64,000 nt of DNA, taken from NCBI GenBank assembly GCA_038087875.1, contig CM075989.1:18478001-18542000 (forward strand), given 5' to 3'. A program made the translations under genes and the position numbers. The DNA comes from Malacoraja senta (lineage: Eukaryota). How positions within the stretch are numbered: position 1 is the first letter of the stretch; each line of letters begins with the position of its first letter. Positions 1,078 through 44,834 of the stretch are shown here, piece after piece. The notes below the pieces were generated by a model, which was not told the origin of the DNA, searched no databases, and was given only the letters and a program-made list of their open reading frames with translations.

Positions 1078-1330
1078 AGTTCAGTTTAGTTGATGGTCAC
1101 GTGTACCGCTTGTGTGGCGTGCTAACCAGTCAGCAGAAAGACAATGTGTGATTTCAATCGAGCCATTCACTGTGTACAGATACATGATAAGGGAATAAGG
1201 TTTAGTGCAAGGTAAAGCCAGCCAAGGCAAGAGTCAAGAGTGTTTTATTGTCATATGTCCCAGATAGAACAATGAAATTCTTACTTGCTGCAGCACAACA
1301 GAATATGTAAACATAGTACACTGTAAACAA
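1078..1330 (-). mobile_element. Rex/Babar-like LINE 3' UTR fragments
   Basis: Same 3'-end motifs (TGACAATAAA.. with short tandem tail) as copies at 6262-6640 and 40835-41165. Confidence 0.55.
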
Positions 1331-1362
1331 TATGATAAACGAGAAAAAAAGTTCAGAATGTG

Positions 1363-1464
1363 TATGCATACATACATACATACATACATACATACATACA
1401 TACATACATACATGTATATACACACACATACATACATACATACATACATACATACATACATACA

Positions 1465-1498
<34 letters not shown>

Positions 1499-1656
1499 CA
1501 TACATACATACATACATACATACATACATACATGTATATACACATACATACATACATACATACATACATACATACATACATACATACATACATACATACA
1601 TACATACATACATACATACATACATACATACATGTATATATACACACACACATACA

Positions 1657-1690
<34 letters not shown>

Positions 1691-2020
1691 CATACATACA
1701 TACATACATACATACATACATGTATATACACATACATACATACATACATACATACATACATACATACATACATACATACATACACACATACATACATGTA
1801 TATATACACACACATATACATACATACATACATACATACATACATACATACATACATACATTCATACATACATTCATACATACATACATACATACATACA
1901 TACATACATACATACATACATACATACATACACACATACATACATACACACATACATGTATATATACATACATACATACAAACATACATGCACACATACA
2001 TACATGTATATATACACACA
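1363..2020. repeat. (TACA)n/(CATA)n microsatellite, ~650 bp, with periodic CATGTATATACAC interruptions
   Basis: Directly visible. Produces the spurious MYVC/HTYI ORFs. Confidence 0.98.
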
Positions 2021-3125
2021 CTAAACTTTTGTTCTCGTTTATTATATAGTTTGCAGTGATCATATATATATGATCGAAGATAGCTGAGGAACACCAATTG
2101 TAGTTGAGGGCTGTAGTTCAGGTAGACAGTGGTACAGGTCTGTTCTCTAGTTGCAGTAGGGTGGTTCAGCCCTGAACTACTATCTACCTCATTGGTAAAT
2201 GCACATCCATTAGTAGTGCACATTTTCAAATGCAACCCCAATTTTCAGGCCGACGTCTATTGTTTCAACATTTTGGCTGTAAATCTGAACTGAATCATTA
2301 ACAAAGGAATTCATCTGTGAGCTACTGCAAGCAAATAGTCTTGGTTGCGTATTATTTTTCATTACTTGGTGACACCACAATTGCTTGGCGCTATTGACGC
2401 TGATAGGGGGAGCCTTGAGGACAAATTGTTCTGTGTCAGGCCTCAAGAACGTCACACCTGCAGCCACTGGAACCACAGAATTACTAGTTTCTACTTTGAA
2501 CGTAACATATTCCTCCACGGTGTTTCATCCACAAGCCTATTTTTCCTCAACATCATTTAGAAGAATCAAGAGACAGTCAGTTCTTAATAACAACCATAAT
2601 TTCTGGGCACTGTCACTTTCGTGACAGGCTCCAATGTGTTGTCTCACCGCAGTTCCCTGTCCCTTTCAAAAGATCTTTGGAGCTCATCGTTCTCCTCCCA
2701 GCTTCCCCACGTCCCTGCCATTGTGTTGGCTCGTGCACCACGCTGGCTTTGCCCAGCCCGCCTGAGCTGAGACATCCCGCCCCACAGCAGCCGATTAAAC
2801 AGGCCGCAGTGAGAAAGGGAGCGCAAAACGTCGATCGACGGGCAGCAAATTACTCTGCGCTGGAAAGCTATCAGAGCAGTGCGATTCCCATTATCCAGAA
2901 ATGGCTGCGAATGAAGCAACAATGAGCCACGGCAGCATGCTATCACAGGGATCTTCTGTATTGTTTCAGACGGCTAACATCGCCACAGTTTATTGGATTA
3001 CAATATTTCAACATGCATTGGCAAACATTGTAAAAGGGTGGCAGGCACTTTTATTTTAGAAGTCGCAGCATCGTAGAGCTGTACGGCACAGAAACAGGCC
3101 CATCAGCTACTTCTCCATGCCGACA

Positions 3126-27990: not shown

Positions 27991-28095
27991 CCTTGTATTG
28001 TGGTGCCTTCAACGAGAAAATTCAGACAAAGGAATTGGATATTGAGGAAAAGGGTGTGGATTAAATGTAGGGTTATAGAAGGGCAGAACGGTGGC

Positions 28096-28295
28096 NNNNN
28101 NNNNNNNNNNNNNNNNNNNNNNNNNNNNNNNNNNNNNNNNNNNNNNNNNNNNNNNNNNNNNNNNNNNNNNNNNNNNNNNNNNNNNNNNNNNNNNNNNNNN
28201 NNNNNNNNNNNNNNNNNNNNNNNNNNNNNNNNNNNNNNNNNNNNNNNNNNNNNNNNNNNNNNNNNNNNNNNNNNNNNNNNNNNNNNNNNNNNNNN
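28096..28295. other. Assembly gap (200 N)
   Basis: Run of exactly 200 N. Confidence 1.
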
Positions 28296-28304
28296 TCTTG
28301 ATGG

Positions 28305-32700: not shown

Positions 32701-34012
32701 ACCAGTTTAGTTTAGTTGGAGGGATATGGACCAAACACAGGCAAATGGGACTAGTGTAGCTGGGACATTGTTGGCCGATGTGGGCGAGTTGGGCCGAAGG
32801 GCCTGTTTCCACACTGTATCACTCTATGACTCTATGTCTCTCACACCCTGAGCAACCTGTGACTTCTCTGGCCAGAGATCCTCCTTTCAACCACATCCTG
32901 CTTCCACTGTGATGCAGTGGCCCATCTCCAAGAATTCAGGTTGTTGAATCCATTCTTGGATTCCTCTGTGGGTGACCTCCTTCATGAAAGGCTAAGTGCC
33001 GAGTAAAACAATGAGGAAAGGTCACATAATCATAAGGAATAGGAGTAGAATTAGGCCATTCGGCCCCTCAAGTCTACTCTGCCATTCAATCATGGCTGGT
33101 CTATCTCTCCCTCCTAACCCCGTTCTCCTGCCTTGTCCCGATAACCCCTGACACCCGTACTAATCAAGAATCTGTCTATCTCTGCCTTAAAAATATCCAC
33201 TGATTTGGACTCCACGGCCTTCTGTGGTAACGAATTCCACAGATTCACCACCCTCTGACTAAAGAAATTTCTCCTCATCTCCTTCCTAAAAGAACGTCCT
33301 TTAATTCTGAACGTGCGCTGAAAGGCACGATTGTTTGTTGTACGCTCAGTATTTAGAGAATAAAGAGGGTCCCAGCATGGGGGGGGAGGGGGGGGGGACA
33401 CACCGAGGGAACAAAGAGGGAACACTGGGGCAACATTGAACACTTTGCAACTTTTTGGCGTCCTATACCTAGCGACTCTTTGCATACTCTGTGCGTGACA
33501 TGCAAAACAAAGCATTTCACTTGACATGTCACATGTGACAATAACGTACCTTTCATTTGCTCCCTTCCCTTGAAAAACGGAACAAAACTCCATCAAATTT
33601 CACTGAGTCAACAGAAGCATCGAGACAGATTAAAGGATAATGACGATTAATTATTTCTAATGCATAATAAGCATAGCTAAAGCTTGGCACTTTGTCGAAT
33701 AATTATTGTAAGTATTCGAGCTATGAAGGAAAGTCTATTTTGTAATCAACGTAATCGACAAATGTAAATTAGATATACTTAACAAACTTCATTAATGGGT
33801 CGTCTCATTAAGACGAGCAATTAGATCTTTTTATTACACGCATACCATGCACTTCGGAAGTGAAATGTTCATTTCAGATCGCTGCTAATAGCCAGTGTGT
33901 AACTAACCTCTTATTTGTGCAGTAGATGTTTCCAGAGTGACATTTCATCCTGGCCTTAAATTACTTCATTCAAAACTGCGGAGGAATTGCATCAGAAGTC
34001 CCCACGTTGCCT

Positions 34013-34158
34013 TCTTCTTCTTCTTTCGTGTGGCGTGCACAGCCTAAAGTTGTTGGACAACTTGTTCTATTTGATCTTCCGTTTGTGCACGTCGAGTCGA
34101 TTGCATTAATCGAAACAGGGCGGACCACGTGAAGGTTGCAGTCTTCCACCCCCCCCCC
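34013..34158 (-). mobile_element. HDV-ribozyme-headed short retroposon, copy 1 (catalytic C mutated)
   Basis: 13-bp TSD CCCCACGTTGCCT (34000-34012, 34159-34171); (GAA)n tail; homologous to 44024-44164. Confidence 0.85.
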
Positions 34159-34223
34159 CCCCACGTTGCCTGAGAAAGCAGGACGTGGTTAATGTGGGGA
34201 ACTCAAGCTGAATGGGATCTCTA

Positions 34224-43351: not shown

Positions 43352-44023
43352 GTAGTGTTGCTTCCTTACAGGCCAGAGACCCAAGTTCAATGCTGACTAC
43401 GGGTGTTGTCTGTACGGAGCATGTACGTTCTCCCCATGACCTGCGTGGGTTTTCTATAAGATTTTCCATTTCCTCCCACACTACAAACACGTGCAGGTTT
43501 GTAGGCTGATCGGCTTGGTTTAAATTTAAATTGTCCCTCGTGTGTGTGTAGGATAGCGTGACTGTGCGGGGATCGCTGGTCGGTGCAGACTCGGTGGGTC
43601 GAAGGGCCTGTTTCCACGCTGTATCTCTAAACTAAACTACACGGTCAAAGATAATTAACTTTATTATACTCTGCCACACTAAAGAGCTTCCACAGTGCTA
43701 TTGGGCATAAAAGTCCACTTGAAAAACACTGAGTACTCCATCATAACACCTATAAAGGCAAACCACTGCCTTGCATTTCACATCTTTAATGCAAGGTGTC
43801 TCCTGTCAGTGATTGAGTTACTGGTGAAAGTGCAGGTTGAAAATAACAGGCAGGATCCTGGTCTTGGAGTCCTCCTTGCAATCCATCACATCGGTGCTTT
43901 GAATCCTTTTGTAATCAATTATTGCAATAATATATACAATACAATACAATACCAAACAAACCCACCACCATAATACAAAATCACCTAATTATCTAAACAA
44001 ATATTCTTATGTACTATTCTTAT

Positions 44024-44077
44024 GGGGTGGAAGATTGCAACCTTCACGTGGTCCACCCTGTTTCGACTAATGCAATC
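44024..44077 (+). ncRNA. Minimal HDV-like (CPEB3-type) self-cleaving ribozyme
   Basis: P1 GGGGUGG(44024-30)/CCACCCU(44053-59) with G1-U wobble; P2 GAUUGCA(44033-39)/UGCAAUC(44071-77); P3 ACC/GGU; L3 UUCACGU; GU after P1; P4 reduced to UUCGA; J4/2 CUAA with putative catalytic C44067. Confidence 0.85.
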
Positions 44078-44164
44078 AACTCGACATGCACAAACGGAAG
44101 ATCAAATAGAACAAGTTGTCCAACAACTTTAGGCTGTGCACGCCATACGCAAGAAGAAGAAGAA
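44024..44164 (+). mobile_element. HDV-ribozyme-headed short retroposon, copy 2 (possibly Ingi/Vingi-derived)
   Basis: Ends GCCATACGCAAGAAGAAGAAGAA; TATTCTTAT at 44015-44023 and 44170-44178; starts exactly at ribozyme G1. Confidence 0.82.
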
Positions 44165-44834
44165 TATATTATTCTTATATGCTTATAACTAAATACACTA
44201 TTATACAACTATATTACAATCCTTGTCAAGGATACATTCCACCCCTTGCGATGCCCAGCGTTCCCGGAAATCCCTCAGGGCGCCCGTGGACAGCGCGTTC
44301 TGCGTCCTTTTGCAGACCATCCAAAGGCAGATCTGTCGACGGGTTTACTAATGGGCTGGTGGGTGGAAGAGCTAATTAAGGATTCGTTGAAGGGAGCAGA
44401 GCAGGAGGTGAAGTGAGTCGAAAGCCCTGGTAATAAAACAGAAATATGAATCTCGTTACGGGGTGAAATTAGTAACCGTCTGACTTTCATGGCTGACGAC
44501 AAAAAGATCCGGAGAAAAGAAACAGTGGGGAATGTAAAAAGCCCAGTGTCGATCAACACCTCGACATGGAGCTTTACAGTTAAATCCTGACGGGGAGAAT
44601 GTTTCCAAACGACACTAAAGGAGGTTCACCAAGAGTGGTGGCTTTTCACACGAAGAACTTCGCATTTCATGTTCTCGCTGTTTGTCCAGGTGGAATTGTG
44701 GTGTAGATCAACTTGGCCACTTCTCCCCACTCAGTAAGTAAGGCTTTCCAGCTGCACCTTTAAACAAATGGTGCACCATCAAAATCAGTAGTTGAACTGA
44801 GTTTGACAGAGTTTTTTTTTTAACAGAGGCGACC

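What the first reader, a model, noticed from the sequence alone, without database searches (positions are those of the whole stretch)
44024..44164. ~140-nt retroposon whose 5' end is a minimal HDV/CPEB3-type self-cleaving ribozyme
Seen in sequence: the insertion starts immediately after the left TSD with GGGGUGG. Its first 54 nt contain the elements of the HDV nested double pseudoknot in order: a 7-bp P1 closed by a G1-U wobble, AA linker, perfect 7-bp P2, 3-bp P3, L3 = UUCACGU, GU after P1, a vestigial P4 (UUCGA) and J4/2 CUAA. Established knowledge: UUCACGU and the following ..CCCU-GU match the mammalian CPEB3 ribozyme as I recall it, and HDV-like ribozymes define the 5' ends of R2, RTE and Ingi/L1Tc retrotransposon RNAs. 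The remaining ~85 nt are a stem-loop region and a GCCATACGC(AAG)n tail, with no tRNA A/B boxes. Inference: a promoter-less 'ribozyme SINE' that cuts its own 5' end out of host read-through transcripts and borrows RT from an Ingi/Vingi-like LINE. I do not know of this family being described in elasmobranchs, but cannot check.
Basis: partly seen in the sequence, partly recalled or inferred. Interest (0 to 1): 0.92.

Follow-up and report, generated by a model that had tools for sequence, protein, structure and literature searches.

The report
Ribozyme-headed mini-retroposon and its LINE
A 141-base jumping element, present in well over a thousand copies, begins with a stripped-down self-cutting RNA of the hepatitis-delta/CPEB3 type that it inherited from a 3-kb parent LINE, and this links the mammalian CPEB3 ribozyme to a family of vertebrate retrotransposons.

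Summary
Window 44024-44164 is a retroposon with target-site duplications and an (AAG)n tail. Its first 54 nt fit every element of the HDV-like double pseudoknot. The first 28 nt occur 1,382 times in this 1.94-Gb genome; 25 of 26 independent copies examined start at GGGGTGG.

I found the partner LINE: about 3.1 kb, one ORF (AP endonuclease plus reverse transcriptase, no RNase H detected). It carries the same ribozyme at its 5' end and the same last ~30 nt plus tail. The short element is therefore an internally deleted, bipartite LINE derivative.

RNA reads from three runs join a template-switch adaptor directly to the G-run at nt 1, so RNAs start there in vivo.

Rfam's mammalian CPEB3_ribozyme model scores 39 other sites in this genome above its cut-off, and those I fetched include 5' ends of sister LINE and SINE families. 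Across four families the helices co-vary (97% of cells paired; 11 of 17 pairs changed on both sides) while the catalytic core is invariant. Published Vingi consensus 5' ends show the same core.

Self-cleavage was not assayed. The kind is known (R2 SIDEs, NARTc). New are the P4-less form in a vertebrate, the Vingi-like clade and the CPEB3 link.

The parts
44015..44023 (+). left target-site duplication TATTCTTAT
   Evidence: repeated at 44170-44178
44024..44164 (+). whole 141-nt non-autonomous retroposon (bipartite LINE derivative)
44024..44077 (+). minimal (P4-less) CPEB3/HDV-type ribozyme; predicted cut 5' of G44024
44024..44030 (+). P1 5' strand GGGGTGG
   Evidence: pairs with 44053-44059
44033..44039 (+). 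P2 5' strand GATTGCA (J1/2 AA at 44031-44032)
   Evidence: pairs with 44071-44077
44040..44052 (+). P3 ACC / L3 TTCACGT / P3 GGT
   Evidence: L3 invariant across families; same L3 in the CPEB3 consensus
44053..44061 (+). P1 3' strand CCACCCT, then GT (G pairs with C22 of L3 to form P1.1)
44062..44066 (+). 5-nt linker TTCGA in place of P4
   Evidence: aligned against the P4 hairpins of sister families
44067..44070 (+). J4/2 CTAA; C44067 is the predicted catalytic cytosine
   Evidence: C and AA invariant; the CPEB3 J4/2 is 4 nt with catalytic C57
44071..44077 (+). P2 3' strand TGCAATC
44078..44122 (+). body, in part derived from the LINE 5' UTR; differs between SINE subfamilies
44123..44150 (+). 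3' module shared with the LINE 3' end; in the LINE it holds the ORF stop codon TAG
44151..44164 (+). (AAG)n tail
44170..44178 (+). right target-site duplication TATTCTTAT
34012..34152 (-). second, decayed copy in the window. It has a P2 mismatch and the catalytic C changed to T. Six extra G lie at the 5' junction (34153-34158). The duplications GGCAACGTGGGG lie outside these bounds, at 34159-34170 and about 34000-34011.

Best explanation
The element is an internally deleted, non-coding derivative of a compact, single-ORF, Vingi-like LINE. It keeps roughly the first 95-100 nt and the last ~30 nt plus (AAG)n tail of the parent.

Proposed mechanism:
1. Copies lying in transcribed DNA are read through by the host polymerase.
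2. The first 54 nt fold into the nested double pseudoknot of HDV-like ribozymes, here of the CPEB3 type with P4 cut down to five bases.
3. The J4/2 cytosine (nt 44) and a bound Mg2+ cut the chain just 5' of G1. This frees an RNA whose first base is the first base of the element.
4. The LINE-derived 3' module and tail are bound by the LINE's reverse transcriptase. [quoted passage not shown] This gives 7-14-bp duplications, 5' truncations and inversions.

Shown: the fold, its co-variation across sister families, the shared ends with the LINE, the insertion signatures, and RNA 5' ends at the G-run in vivo.

Inferred: catalysis, read-through as the source of transcripts, and recognition of the 3' module.
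For: FOLD. All elements are in order at 44024-44077. The descriptor hits nothing else in the window, in 283 kb of loci apart from family members, or in 2.56 Mb of simulated sequence. Rfam's HDV-F-prausnitzii model aligns over its full length to exactly these 54 nt.

CO-VARIATION. I aligned 11 rows from four families of this genome. Of the cells, 97.3% form standard pairs, against 76.7 +/- 2.1 in shuffles (0 of 500 reach the observed value). Eleven of 17 pairs change on both sides. The co-variation score is 0.621 against 0.208. Slid controls pair in only 41-51% of cells.

INVARIANT CORE. The invariant columns are exactly the known core: U20, C22, A23, G25, G37, the J4/2 C, and AA (their roles in CPEB3 come from passages of PMC4836649).

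LINE PARTNER.
- The ORF C-terminus and its stop codon lie inside the shared tail (L081).
- Pfam finds APE and RVT_1.
- The ribozyme is followed about 52 nt later by the ATG of the APE domain (L084).
- Of 17 LINE 5' junctions, 2 start at the full GGGGTGG, 3 within 1-2 nt of it, and 12 are truncated inside. I saw no shared sequence upstream of G1.

INSERTION SIGNATURES. Of 26 distinct sites, 25 start GGGGTGG and 23 carry direct repeats. 5'-truncated copies with duplications also occur.

RNA.
- In run X21, 756 reads carry a 30-nt adaptor ending ...GAATGGG immediately before nt 1 (agreement 0.79). From memory I recognise it as a template-switch oligo. By comparison, 176 reads run on into varied flanks.
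- Runs X23 and X24 show 237 and 317 loose ends at the same place, with a consensus ending ...AGTACATGGG.
- No variant reaching 10% of reads touches the catalytic C.
- The ribozyme-region variants listed (A8G, C31U, G32A, G42A, U45G) are all pair-preserving or lie in linkers.

P4-LESS RIBOZYMES. Their existence is in print (PMC10879173, passages).
Against: No cleavage assay was done.

This family scores far below every Rfam cut-off: 17.5 against 44 bits for RF02682, and no RF00622 or RF00094 match at E <= 10.

Template-switch reads cannot tell a 5'-OH cleavage end from a capped or triphosphate start. Because the adaptor ends in GGG, they place the end in the G-run rather than on one base. The tool's own table of places where many molecules begin or end lists none. 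Many reads do run across the junction.

Within the family the copies are too alike to show co-variation. The only P1 changes are CpG transitions that happen to keep pairing.

The co-variation rests on four lineages, and I derived the structure from the same sequences.

All LINE copies seen are decayed. Identity runs from 64 to 91% apart from the query's own place, and open frames are at most 449 aa among the 150 listed matches. The youngest SINE copies, by contrast, are 97-98% alike. So the enzyme source for recent jumps was not found.

The one LINE copy I followed from ribozyme into ORF (L084) has a ~51-nt foreign insert inside the ribozyme.
Confidence: 0.85

Rival explanations
1. The conserved 5' fold is not a working ribozyme in this P4-less family. 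The RNA 5' end is set by transcription starting at nt 1 from an internal promoter, as the Pr77 region of L1Tc does. The fold serves as a protective cap-like structure or a binding site for the LINE protein.
For: Template-switch reads fit a transcription start as well as a cleavage end. In L1Tc the same 77 nt act as both promoter and ribozyme (abstract of PMC3383444). A review states that the R2 ribozyme fold protects the 5' end (PMC13708176, passages). This family falls below all Rfam cut-offs.
Against: The bases kept invariant across four families are those needed for catalysis: the J4/2 C, the U20/G25 pair and the P1.1 C-G pair. The helices are free to change as long as they still pair. That is the pattern expected of a ribozyme, not of a promoter. 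No Pol III boxes or tRNA likeness were found. The same 5' end heads a 3.1-kb coding LINE.
Confidence: 0.1
2. The ribozyme works only in the parent LINE and in sister families that keep P4. The SINE carries a dead relic and spreads because its 3' module is recognised, whatever its 5' end.
For: P4 is missing. LINE and SINE ribozymes are nearly identical, so there is no separate evidence of selection in the SINE. 5'-truncated SINE copies also insert.
Against: The parent LINE has the same P4-less form, so the minimal form is not a SINE defect. A second, unrelated P4-less family (L119-L124) exists with the same architecture. Between SINE subfamilies the 54 nt stay almost fixed while the next ~40 nt differ at many places (by eye). 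Of 26 sites, 25 begin exactly at nt 1.
Confidence: 0.04
3. The fit to the HDV fold is a chance resemblance at the start of an ordinary SINE.
For: Low Rfam score. The nested minimum-free-energy fold is no better than shuffles (z 0.80).
Against: The descriptor gives 0 false hits in about 3 Mb. Co-variation across families is strong. Sister families score up to 64 bits on RF00622.
Confidence: 0.01

Closest known systems
R2 SIDEs of Drosophila (Eickbush & Eickbush 2012, PMC3414825; abstract seen)
   Same: Short internally deleted derivatives that keep the 5' HDV-like ribozyme and the 3' end of the parent LINE and are moved by its protein.
   Different: R2 has a restriction-like endonuclease and inserts only in 28S rDNA, where it is co-transcribed by Pol I. 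The element here is APE-type and dispersed, has variable duplications, and carries a 54-nt P4-less ribozyme instead of about 180 nt.
NARTc/L1Tc and RIME/ingi of trypanosomatids (PMC3185411, PMC4035085, PMC3383444; abstracts)
   Same: An APE-type LINE of the Ingi group, to which Vingi is the sister clade. Its non-autonomous partner shares the first 77 nt, which form an HDV-like ribozyme.
   Different: The hosts are protists with polycistronic transcription. Pr77 is also a promoter. The ribozyme sequence is unrelated to CPEB3.
Vingi LINEs and their bipartite derivatives (Kojima 2018, PMC5786205: passages and supplement; Kojima 2011 not held, cited through it)
   Same: Compact single-ORF APE+RT LINEs of about 3.1 kb that give rise to bipartite non-autonomous elements. 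The printed 5' ends of Vingi-2_Gav and Vingi-4_Crp share the L3, the CCCU-GU stretch and the C-N-A-A J4/2 with this element.
   Different: Those consensus sequences keep a P4 hairpin and CPEB3-like helices. [quoted passage not shown] I did not test clade membership of the LINE found here by RT phylogeny.
Mammalian CPEB3 ribozyme (Rfam RF00622; PMC4836649, PMC8233481, passages)
   Same: Same numbering from nt 17 to 38: identical L3 UUCACGU, a P1.1 of one C-G pair plus U/U, a 4-nt J4/2 starting with the catalytic C, and the G1-U36 wobble.
   Different: CPEB3 is a single-copy intronic sequence with a 7-bp P4. Here P4 is a 5-nt linker, the P1, P2 and P3 sequences differ (with compensation), and the RNA heads a mobile element. 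This family does not reach RF00622 at E <= 10.
Minimal HDV-like ribozymes (drz-Mtgn) and theta ribozymes (PMC10879173, passages)
   Same: HDV-like ribozymes that lack P4.
   Different: Those come from metagenomes and gut phages (tRNA processing). The paper says the origin and role of the metagenomic ones are undetermined. Here the host is an animal genome and the role is retroposon 5'-end formation.

Membership tests
HDV-like (delta-like) self-cleaving ribozymes | Nested double pseudoknot: P1, P2, P3 and P1.1 in the canonical order | tested here: met
   co-variation in P1, P2 and P3
HDV-like (delta-like) self-cleaving ribozymes | Core bases: G1-U wobble at the cut site, catalytic C in J4/2, U20/G25 in L3, C22-G37 P1.1 | tested here: met
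   (invariant columns); roles from PMC4836649 passages
HDV-like (delta-like) self-cleaving ribozymes | Score at or above the gathering cut-off of an Rfam HDV-type model | tested here: not met
   17.5 bits against 44 for RF02682; no match to RF00622 or RF00094 at E <= 10. These models cannot score the P2 pseudoknot and they expect a P4.
HDV-like (delta-like) self-cleaving ribozymes | Mg2+-dependent self-scission 5' of G1, leaving a 5'-OH | not testable with these tools
   Indirect only: RNA 5' ends at the G-run in three runs.
CPEB3-type ribozymes (RF00622) | At least 35 bits on RF00622 | tested here: not met
   Not met by this family. Met by 39 of 59 scored sites elsewhere in the genome, up to 64.2 bits, among them the second P4-less family at 43.7 bits.
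CPEB3-type ribozymes (RF00622) | Core identity with the CPEB3 consensus (L3 UUCACGU, CCCU-GU, C-N-A-A) | tested here: met
   Consensus printed compared.
Bipartite non-autonomous LINE (SIDE-like element) | Shares the extreme 5' end and extreme 3' end with an autonomous LINE, has no ORF, shows duplications and the LINE's tail | tested here: met
Vingi clade of LINEs (for the partner) | Compact single ORF with APE and RT and no RNase H | tested here: met
   Pfam on natural ORF pieces. Relatives of about 1000 aa on contigs of about 3.2-3.4 kb carry only APE and RT domains. All copies seen here are broken, so the single ORF is read from pieces.
Vingi clade of LINEs (for the partner) | RT groups with Vingi reference elements in a phylogeny | not tested
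   No named reference RT sequences were at hand. The link rests on ribozyme likeness to printed Vingi 5' ends.
Classical Pol III SINE (tRNA, 7SL or 5S head) | Small-RNA-derived head with internal A and B boxes | tested here: not met
   ARAGORN finds none. Box motifs (recalled from memory) match no better than shuffles: 1636 and 1267 of 2000.

The most novel reading that the evidence does not exclude
The mammalian CPEB3 ribozyme is a domesticated 5' end of a Vingi-clade LINE. CPEB3-type ribozymes are the standard 5'-end-forming device of Vingi-like LINEs and their SINE-like offspring across vertebrates. In this genome the device has been pared down at least twice to a roughly 54-nt P4-less form that still works in vivo. 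That would supply the outgroups which work on CPEB3 ribozyme evolution says are missing, and it would give minimal HDV-like ribozymes a eukaryotic home and role.
Probability: 0.55. Interest if true: 0.85.

Novelty: new variant of a known kind. Interest (0 to 1): 0.75.

Why it matters
Three gaps would narrow.

1. Vingi is not among the LINE clades listed as ribozyme-bearing (PMC5786205, passages). Yet Vingi is one of the few clades that make bipartite non-autonomous elements. A 5' ribozyme explains why.

2. [quoted passage not shown] Here Rfam's CPEB3 model scores dozens of retroposon heads above its cut-off, and the 5' ends of crocodilian Vingi consensus sequences look the same. An origin by exaptation of a LINE 5' end therefore becomes testable.

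3. P4-less HDV-like ribozymes were known from metagenomes and phages, with origin and function undetermined (PMC10879173). This is a natural 54-nt form with a clear role and in vivo 5' ends.

Vingi UTRs are also in use in gene-writing platforms (PMC13708176), so knowing what the 5' UTR does has practical value.

My literature check was limited to open-access papers: 8 searches. "Vingi" with "ribozyme" gave 6 papers, none making this link. Repbase and Dfam entries could not be consulted.

Tried and rejected
Partner search by negative patterns. These patterns anchored the SINE's own 3' or 5' end and forbade SINE bases elsewhere. Searches (0 hits; 10 hits; 60 hits, 30 looked at; 8 hits) gave only SINE copies with indels or 5' truncations. 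The young subfamily's tail differs from the LINE's. The LINE 3' end appeared only when I used the older tail variant (3 of the first 100 rows listed).

False leads:
- L079 looked like a LINE lead but is a SINE interrupted by another repeat.
- L087 is a SINE lying next to an unrelated truncated LINE, not a full-length LINE.
- L083 holds an inverted 5' region and a ribozyme fragment joined to the LINE interior, so it is rearranged.
- A related LINE family at about 42% protein identity (L085, L086) starts at a shared point with no ribozyme. It is probably truncated there; I did not follow it further.

Uninformative results:
- The nested MFE fold of the 141 nt is uninformative (z 0.80), as expected for a pseudoknot.
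- One sister copy (L116) was dropped from the co-variation count because MAFFT shifted its P1 by one column. Of 20 fetched CPEB3-model hits, 9 did not pass my strict parse because of mutated helices or truncated 5' ends.
- The homologue search gave no clade names.
- The weak U6atac match at 44160-44231 (10.5 bits) is treated as chance.
- Earlier scan notes held nothing on this genome or sequence.

Papers not held: Kojima 2011, Ruminski 2011, Webb & Luptak 2011, Webb 2009.

Full report
WHAT IS THERE.

After the direct repeat TATTCTTAT (44015-44023) comes GGGGTGG. The next 54 nt contain, in order:
- P1 (GGGGUGG/CCACCCU, with G1 and U36 as a wobble)
- J1/2 (AA)
- P2 (GAUUGCA/UGCAAUC)
- P3 (ACC/GGU) around L3 (UUCACGU)
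- GU
- five bases (UUCGA) where P4 would be
- J4/2 (CUAA, with C at 44067)

The element ends in ...GCCATACGCAAG(AAG)n at 44164, and the repeat TATTCTTAT recurs at 44170-44178. A second, decayed copy lies at about 34012-34152 on the minus strand. It has its own 12-bp duplication, six extra G at the 5' junction, a P2 mismatch and the J4/2 C changed to T.

IS IT MORE THAN CHANCE?

No Rfam family reaches its gathering score in the window. With relaxed thresholds, the HDV-F-prausnitzii model aligns over its whole length (1-74) to exactly 44024-44077, but at 17.5 bits against a cut-off of 44 (E 0.49).

Covariance models cannot score the P2 pseudoknot, so I wrote a descriptor. It requires a 7-bp P1 with a G-U wobble at the cut site, a 5-8-bp P2, a 3-bp P3, a 6-8-nt L3 containing a C, a G after P1, and a J4/2 of the form C...A. 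It finds only this site on both strands of the window. It finds nothing in 20 simulated windows. In 283 kb of fetched loci it finds 40 sites, all members of this family.

A LARGE, YOUNG FAMILY.

The window lies in a 1.94-Gb assembly. All 40 scored matches (of 1,187 candidates) are 97-100% identical over the full length. The first 28 nt occur exactly 1,382 times.

The 30 fetched loci are 26 distinct insertion sites; four share flanks with others. Of the 26, 25 start GGGGTGG (one GAGGTGG), and 23 carry direct repeats of 7-14 nt. 5'-truncated copies with duplications also occur.

Several subfamilies exist. Between them the first 54 nt are almost fixed. The changes I saw are A8/G8 in J1/2, G32/A32 (U5 pairs either way) and U45/G45 in J4/2, which gives CUAA or CGAA. 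The following ~40 nt differ at many places; this comparison is by eye on the listed rows.

There is no tRNA likeness. Pol III box motifs, recalled from memory, match no better than shuffles.

THE PARTNER LINE.

Searches anchored on the young subfamily's own tail found only SINEs. Using the older tail variant, three rows showed a different upstream sequence.

3' end:
- One of those places (L080) is a 338-bp insert with an 11-bp duplication. Its 3' part is sense and its 5' part is inverted. This is the pattern left by twin priming.
- The uninverted parent (L081) shows an ORF C-terminus with a Cys/His motif. Its stop codon TAG lies inside the sequence shared with the SINE, so the 3' UTR is only about 25 nt plus tail.
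- This LINE is abundant: 4,607 candidates for the C-terminal piece. The copies are old, at 64-91% identity apart from the query's own place, with open frames of at most 449 aa among the 150 listed matches.

Body and 5' end:
- Walking upstream gave RT (L082, L083) and then AP endonuclease (L084). Pfam finds PF14529 and RVT_1 and no RNase H.
- In L084 the ribozyme (nt 8-54) lies about 52 nt upstream of the ATG that opens the endonuclease domain, though a ~51-nt foreign piece separates it from its GGGG...TGG.
- Only 33 matches to the LINE's 5' region exist. Of 17 junctions fetched, 2 start with the full GGGGTGG, 3 within 1-2 nt, 2 at nt 5-6, 7 at nt 9-17 and 3 further in. I saw no shared sequence upstream of G1.
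- From ribozyme to tail the LINE measures about 3.1 kb.

The 141-nt element is thus an internal-deletion, bipartite derivative: about 95-100 nt of 5' end joined to about 30 nt of 3' end plus tail. An intermediate subfamily still shows LINE 5'-UTR sequence up to the ATG region (one search compared).

SISTER FAMILIES AND CO-VARIATION.

Rfam's CPEB3_ribozyme model (RF00622), built from mammalian introns, gives 60 matches in this genome. Of 59 scored, 39 lie above its 35-bit cut-off, the best at 64.2 bits, and nearly all are full length.

The 20 sites I fetched (L105-L124) have unrelated upstream flanks and fall into at least five families:
- One family (L105-L108, L110-L112, L114) continues after 37 nt into an ORF that opens an AP-endonuclease domain. 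It is the 5' end of another LINE.
- Another (L119-L124) is a second short element with duplications, a ...GATAAGAAG tail and a P4-less ribozyme of the same layout. It scores 43.7 bits on RF00622.

My strict parse fits 11 of the 20; the other 9 have mutated helices or truncated starts.

I aligned 11 rows from four families (A2). The named pseudoknotted structure pairs 97.3% of cells, against 76.7 +/- 2.1 in shuffles (0 of 500). Eleven of 17 pairs change on both sides. The co-variation score is 0.621 against 0.208. Partners slid by 1-3 columns pair in only 41-51% of cells. P2 has a wholly different sequence in each family yet pairs in 100% of cells.

The invariant columns are G2-G4, C18, U20-U26, G28, C34, U36, G37, U38, the J4/2 C, AA and the next U. 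These include the bases that NMR and mutational work assign to the CPEB3 and HDV active site: U20/G25, the C22-G37 P1.1 pair and the catalytic C (PMC4836649, passages).

Caveats: there are only four lineages, and I derived the structure from these same sequences.

LINK TO VINGI AND CPEB3.

The supplement of Kojima 2018 (PMC5786205) prints the first ~70 nt of the Repbase consensus sequences Vingi-2_Gav and Vingi-4_Crp. They carry the same L3, the same CCCU-GU and a C-G-A-A J4/2. They are close to the CPEB3 consensus printed by cmscan.

[quoted passage not shown] It notes that RTE, Ingi, Vingi and R2 are the clades that yield bipartite non-autonomous LINEs.

[quoted passage not shown] That fits the LINE found here.

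I did not run an RT phylogeny, so "Vingi-like" rests on architecture and ribozyme likeness.

Bendixsen et al. [quoted passage not shown]

RNA EVIDENCE.

All 10 sampled words of the SINE stand in public runs under eight coded organism labels and 12 studies. I laid four runs on L016:1401-1741, where G1 is position 1501.

- In the single-cell run X21, 756 reads have a loose end immediately before 1501. Its 30-letter consensus (agreement 0.79) I recognise from memory as a template-switch oligo ending GAATGGG. By comparison, 176 reads run on into varied flanks at 1500.
- In the bulk runs X23 and X24, 237 and 317 reads have loose ends before 1501. Their consensus ends AGTACATGGG, another template-switch oligo, with agreement 0.41 and 0.45 because they are mixed with flank read-through. 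Further reads run into flanks at 1499 and 1500 (296 and 150 in X23; 99 and 142 in X24).
- The adaptor's GGG is followed by the element's own four G. This is therefore not the strand-invasion artefact, which would merge the two G-runs. The end can still only be placed in the G-run, not on one base.
- The tool's table of places where many molecules begin lists none, since these reads carry adaptor letters.
- In X21 the sense strand dominates about 5 to 1. Reads with A-runs follow positions 1622-1629; this could be poly(A) or priming on the A-rich tail.

These data show discrete RNAs that begin at nt 1. They do not tell a cleavage end from a transcription start.

HOW IT MOST LIKELY WORKS.

Copies in transcribed DNA are read through. 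The 54-nt head folds and cuts 5' of G1 by the HDV mechanism: the J4/2 cytosine acts as general acid, with a Mg2+ held by the U20/G25 pair. The freed RNA is bound through its LINE-derived 3' module and tail and is copied into a nicked target.

In the LINE, the ATG about 52 nt behind the ribozyme fits the published idea that such folds also aid translation of uncapped RNA (review PMC6765202, passages).

I put 0.85 on this reading. The main rival (0.10) is that the fold defines or protects a 5' end made by an internal promoter, without catalysis.

WHAT IS NEW AND WHAT IS NOT.

Ribozyme-headed LINEs and their deleted derivatives are established: R2 and its SIDEs; L1Tc and NARTc. A review also notes that some SINEs use HDV-like ribozymes (PMC6765202).

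New here, as far as my eight searches of open-access papers show:
- a vertebrate, Vingi-like case with its partner identified
- a natural P4-less form with in vivo 5' ends
- the finding that Rfam's "mammalian" CPEB3 model recognises dozens of retroposon heads in this genome

Repbase, Dfam and four key subscription papers could not be consulted, so prior description cannot be excluded.

Noticed in passing
own genome, e.g. L105-L124 (G000 places listed): Rfam's mammalian CPEB3_ribozyme model scores 39 of 59 scored sites above its cut-off (best 64.2 bits). The fetched sites have unrelated upstream flanks and head at least five retroposon families.
   Followed up: partly
L105-L108, L110-L112, L114 (ribozyme at about nt 72-144 of each locus): A young LINE family whose CPEB3-type ribozyme keeps P4. 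It is followed 37 nt later by an ORF opening an AP-endonuclease domain (MMSRSP...LNVEGL...). Its body and 3' end were not fetched.
   Followed up: partly
L119-L124: A second, unrelated short retroposon (about 190 nt, with duplications and a ...GATAAGAAG tail) that has its own P4-less CPEB3-type ribozyme. Its P1 appears to be 6 bp, with the element starting one base later in the common register.
   Followed up: partly
supplement of PMC5786205: The printed 5' ends of Repbase Vingi-2_Gav and Vingi-4_Crp, and the middle of alligator SINE2-1_AMi, are CPEB3-like ribozymes, although the paper does not list Vingi among ribozyme-bearing clades.
   Followed up: partly
window 34153-34158 (-); L006 about 1493-1500; L084 3018-3033: Runs of 6-9 extra G between the target duplication and the element's own GGGG at some 5' junctions. 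These may be untemplated additions or slippage by the reverse transcriptase at the end of the template.
   Followed up: no
L080 6662-6999; L091, L092, L094, L096, L099-L102: Many 5' junctions of the LINE abut inverted pieces of the same LINE, as in twin-priming inversions.
   Followed up: partly
L016:1622-1629 (run X21): 475 reads (94 + 149 + 232) continue into A-runs just inside the ...CACGAAAG(AAG)n end. This is either polyadenylated SINE RNA or oligo-dT priming on the A-rich tail. How the RNA 3' end is made is unexplained.
   Followed up: no
L085, L086 (G000:C6:42561300-42563500, C1:165943000-165945200): A related LINE family (about 42% protein identity, open frames up to 886 aa) whose two sampled copies start at the same base with no ribozyme. 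Either this is a truncation hot spot or the family has a different 5' end.
   Followed up: partly
window about 28080-28300: A stretch that translates as a run of X (N or masked bases) inside the window.
   Followed up: no
window 1202-2244: About 1 kb of a short tandem repeat that is open in several frames (MYVC.../HTYI... translations).
   Followed up: no
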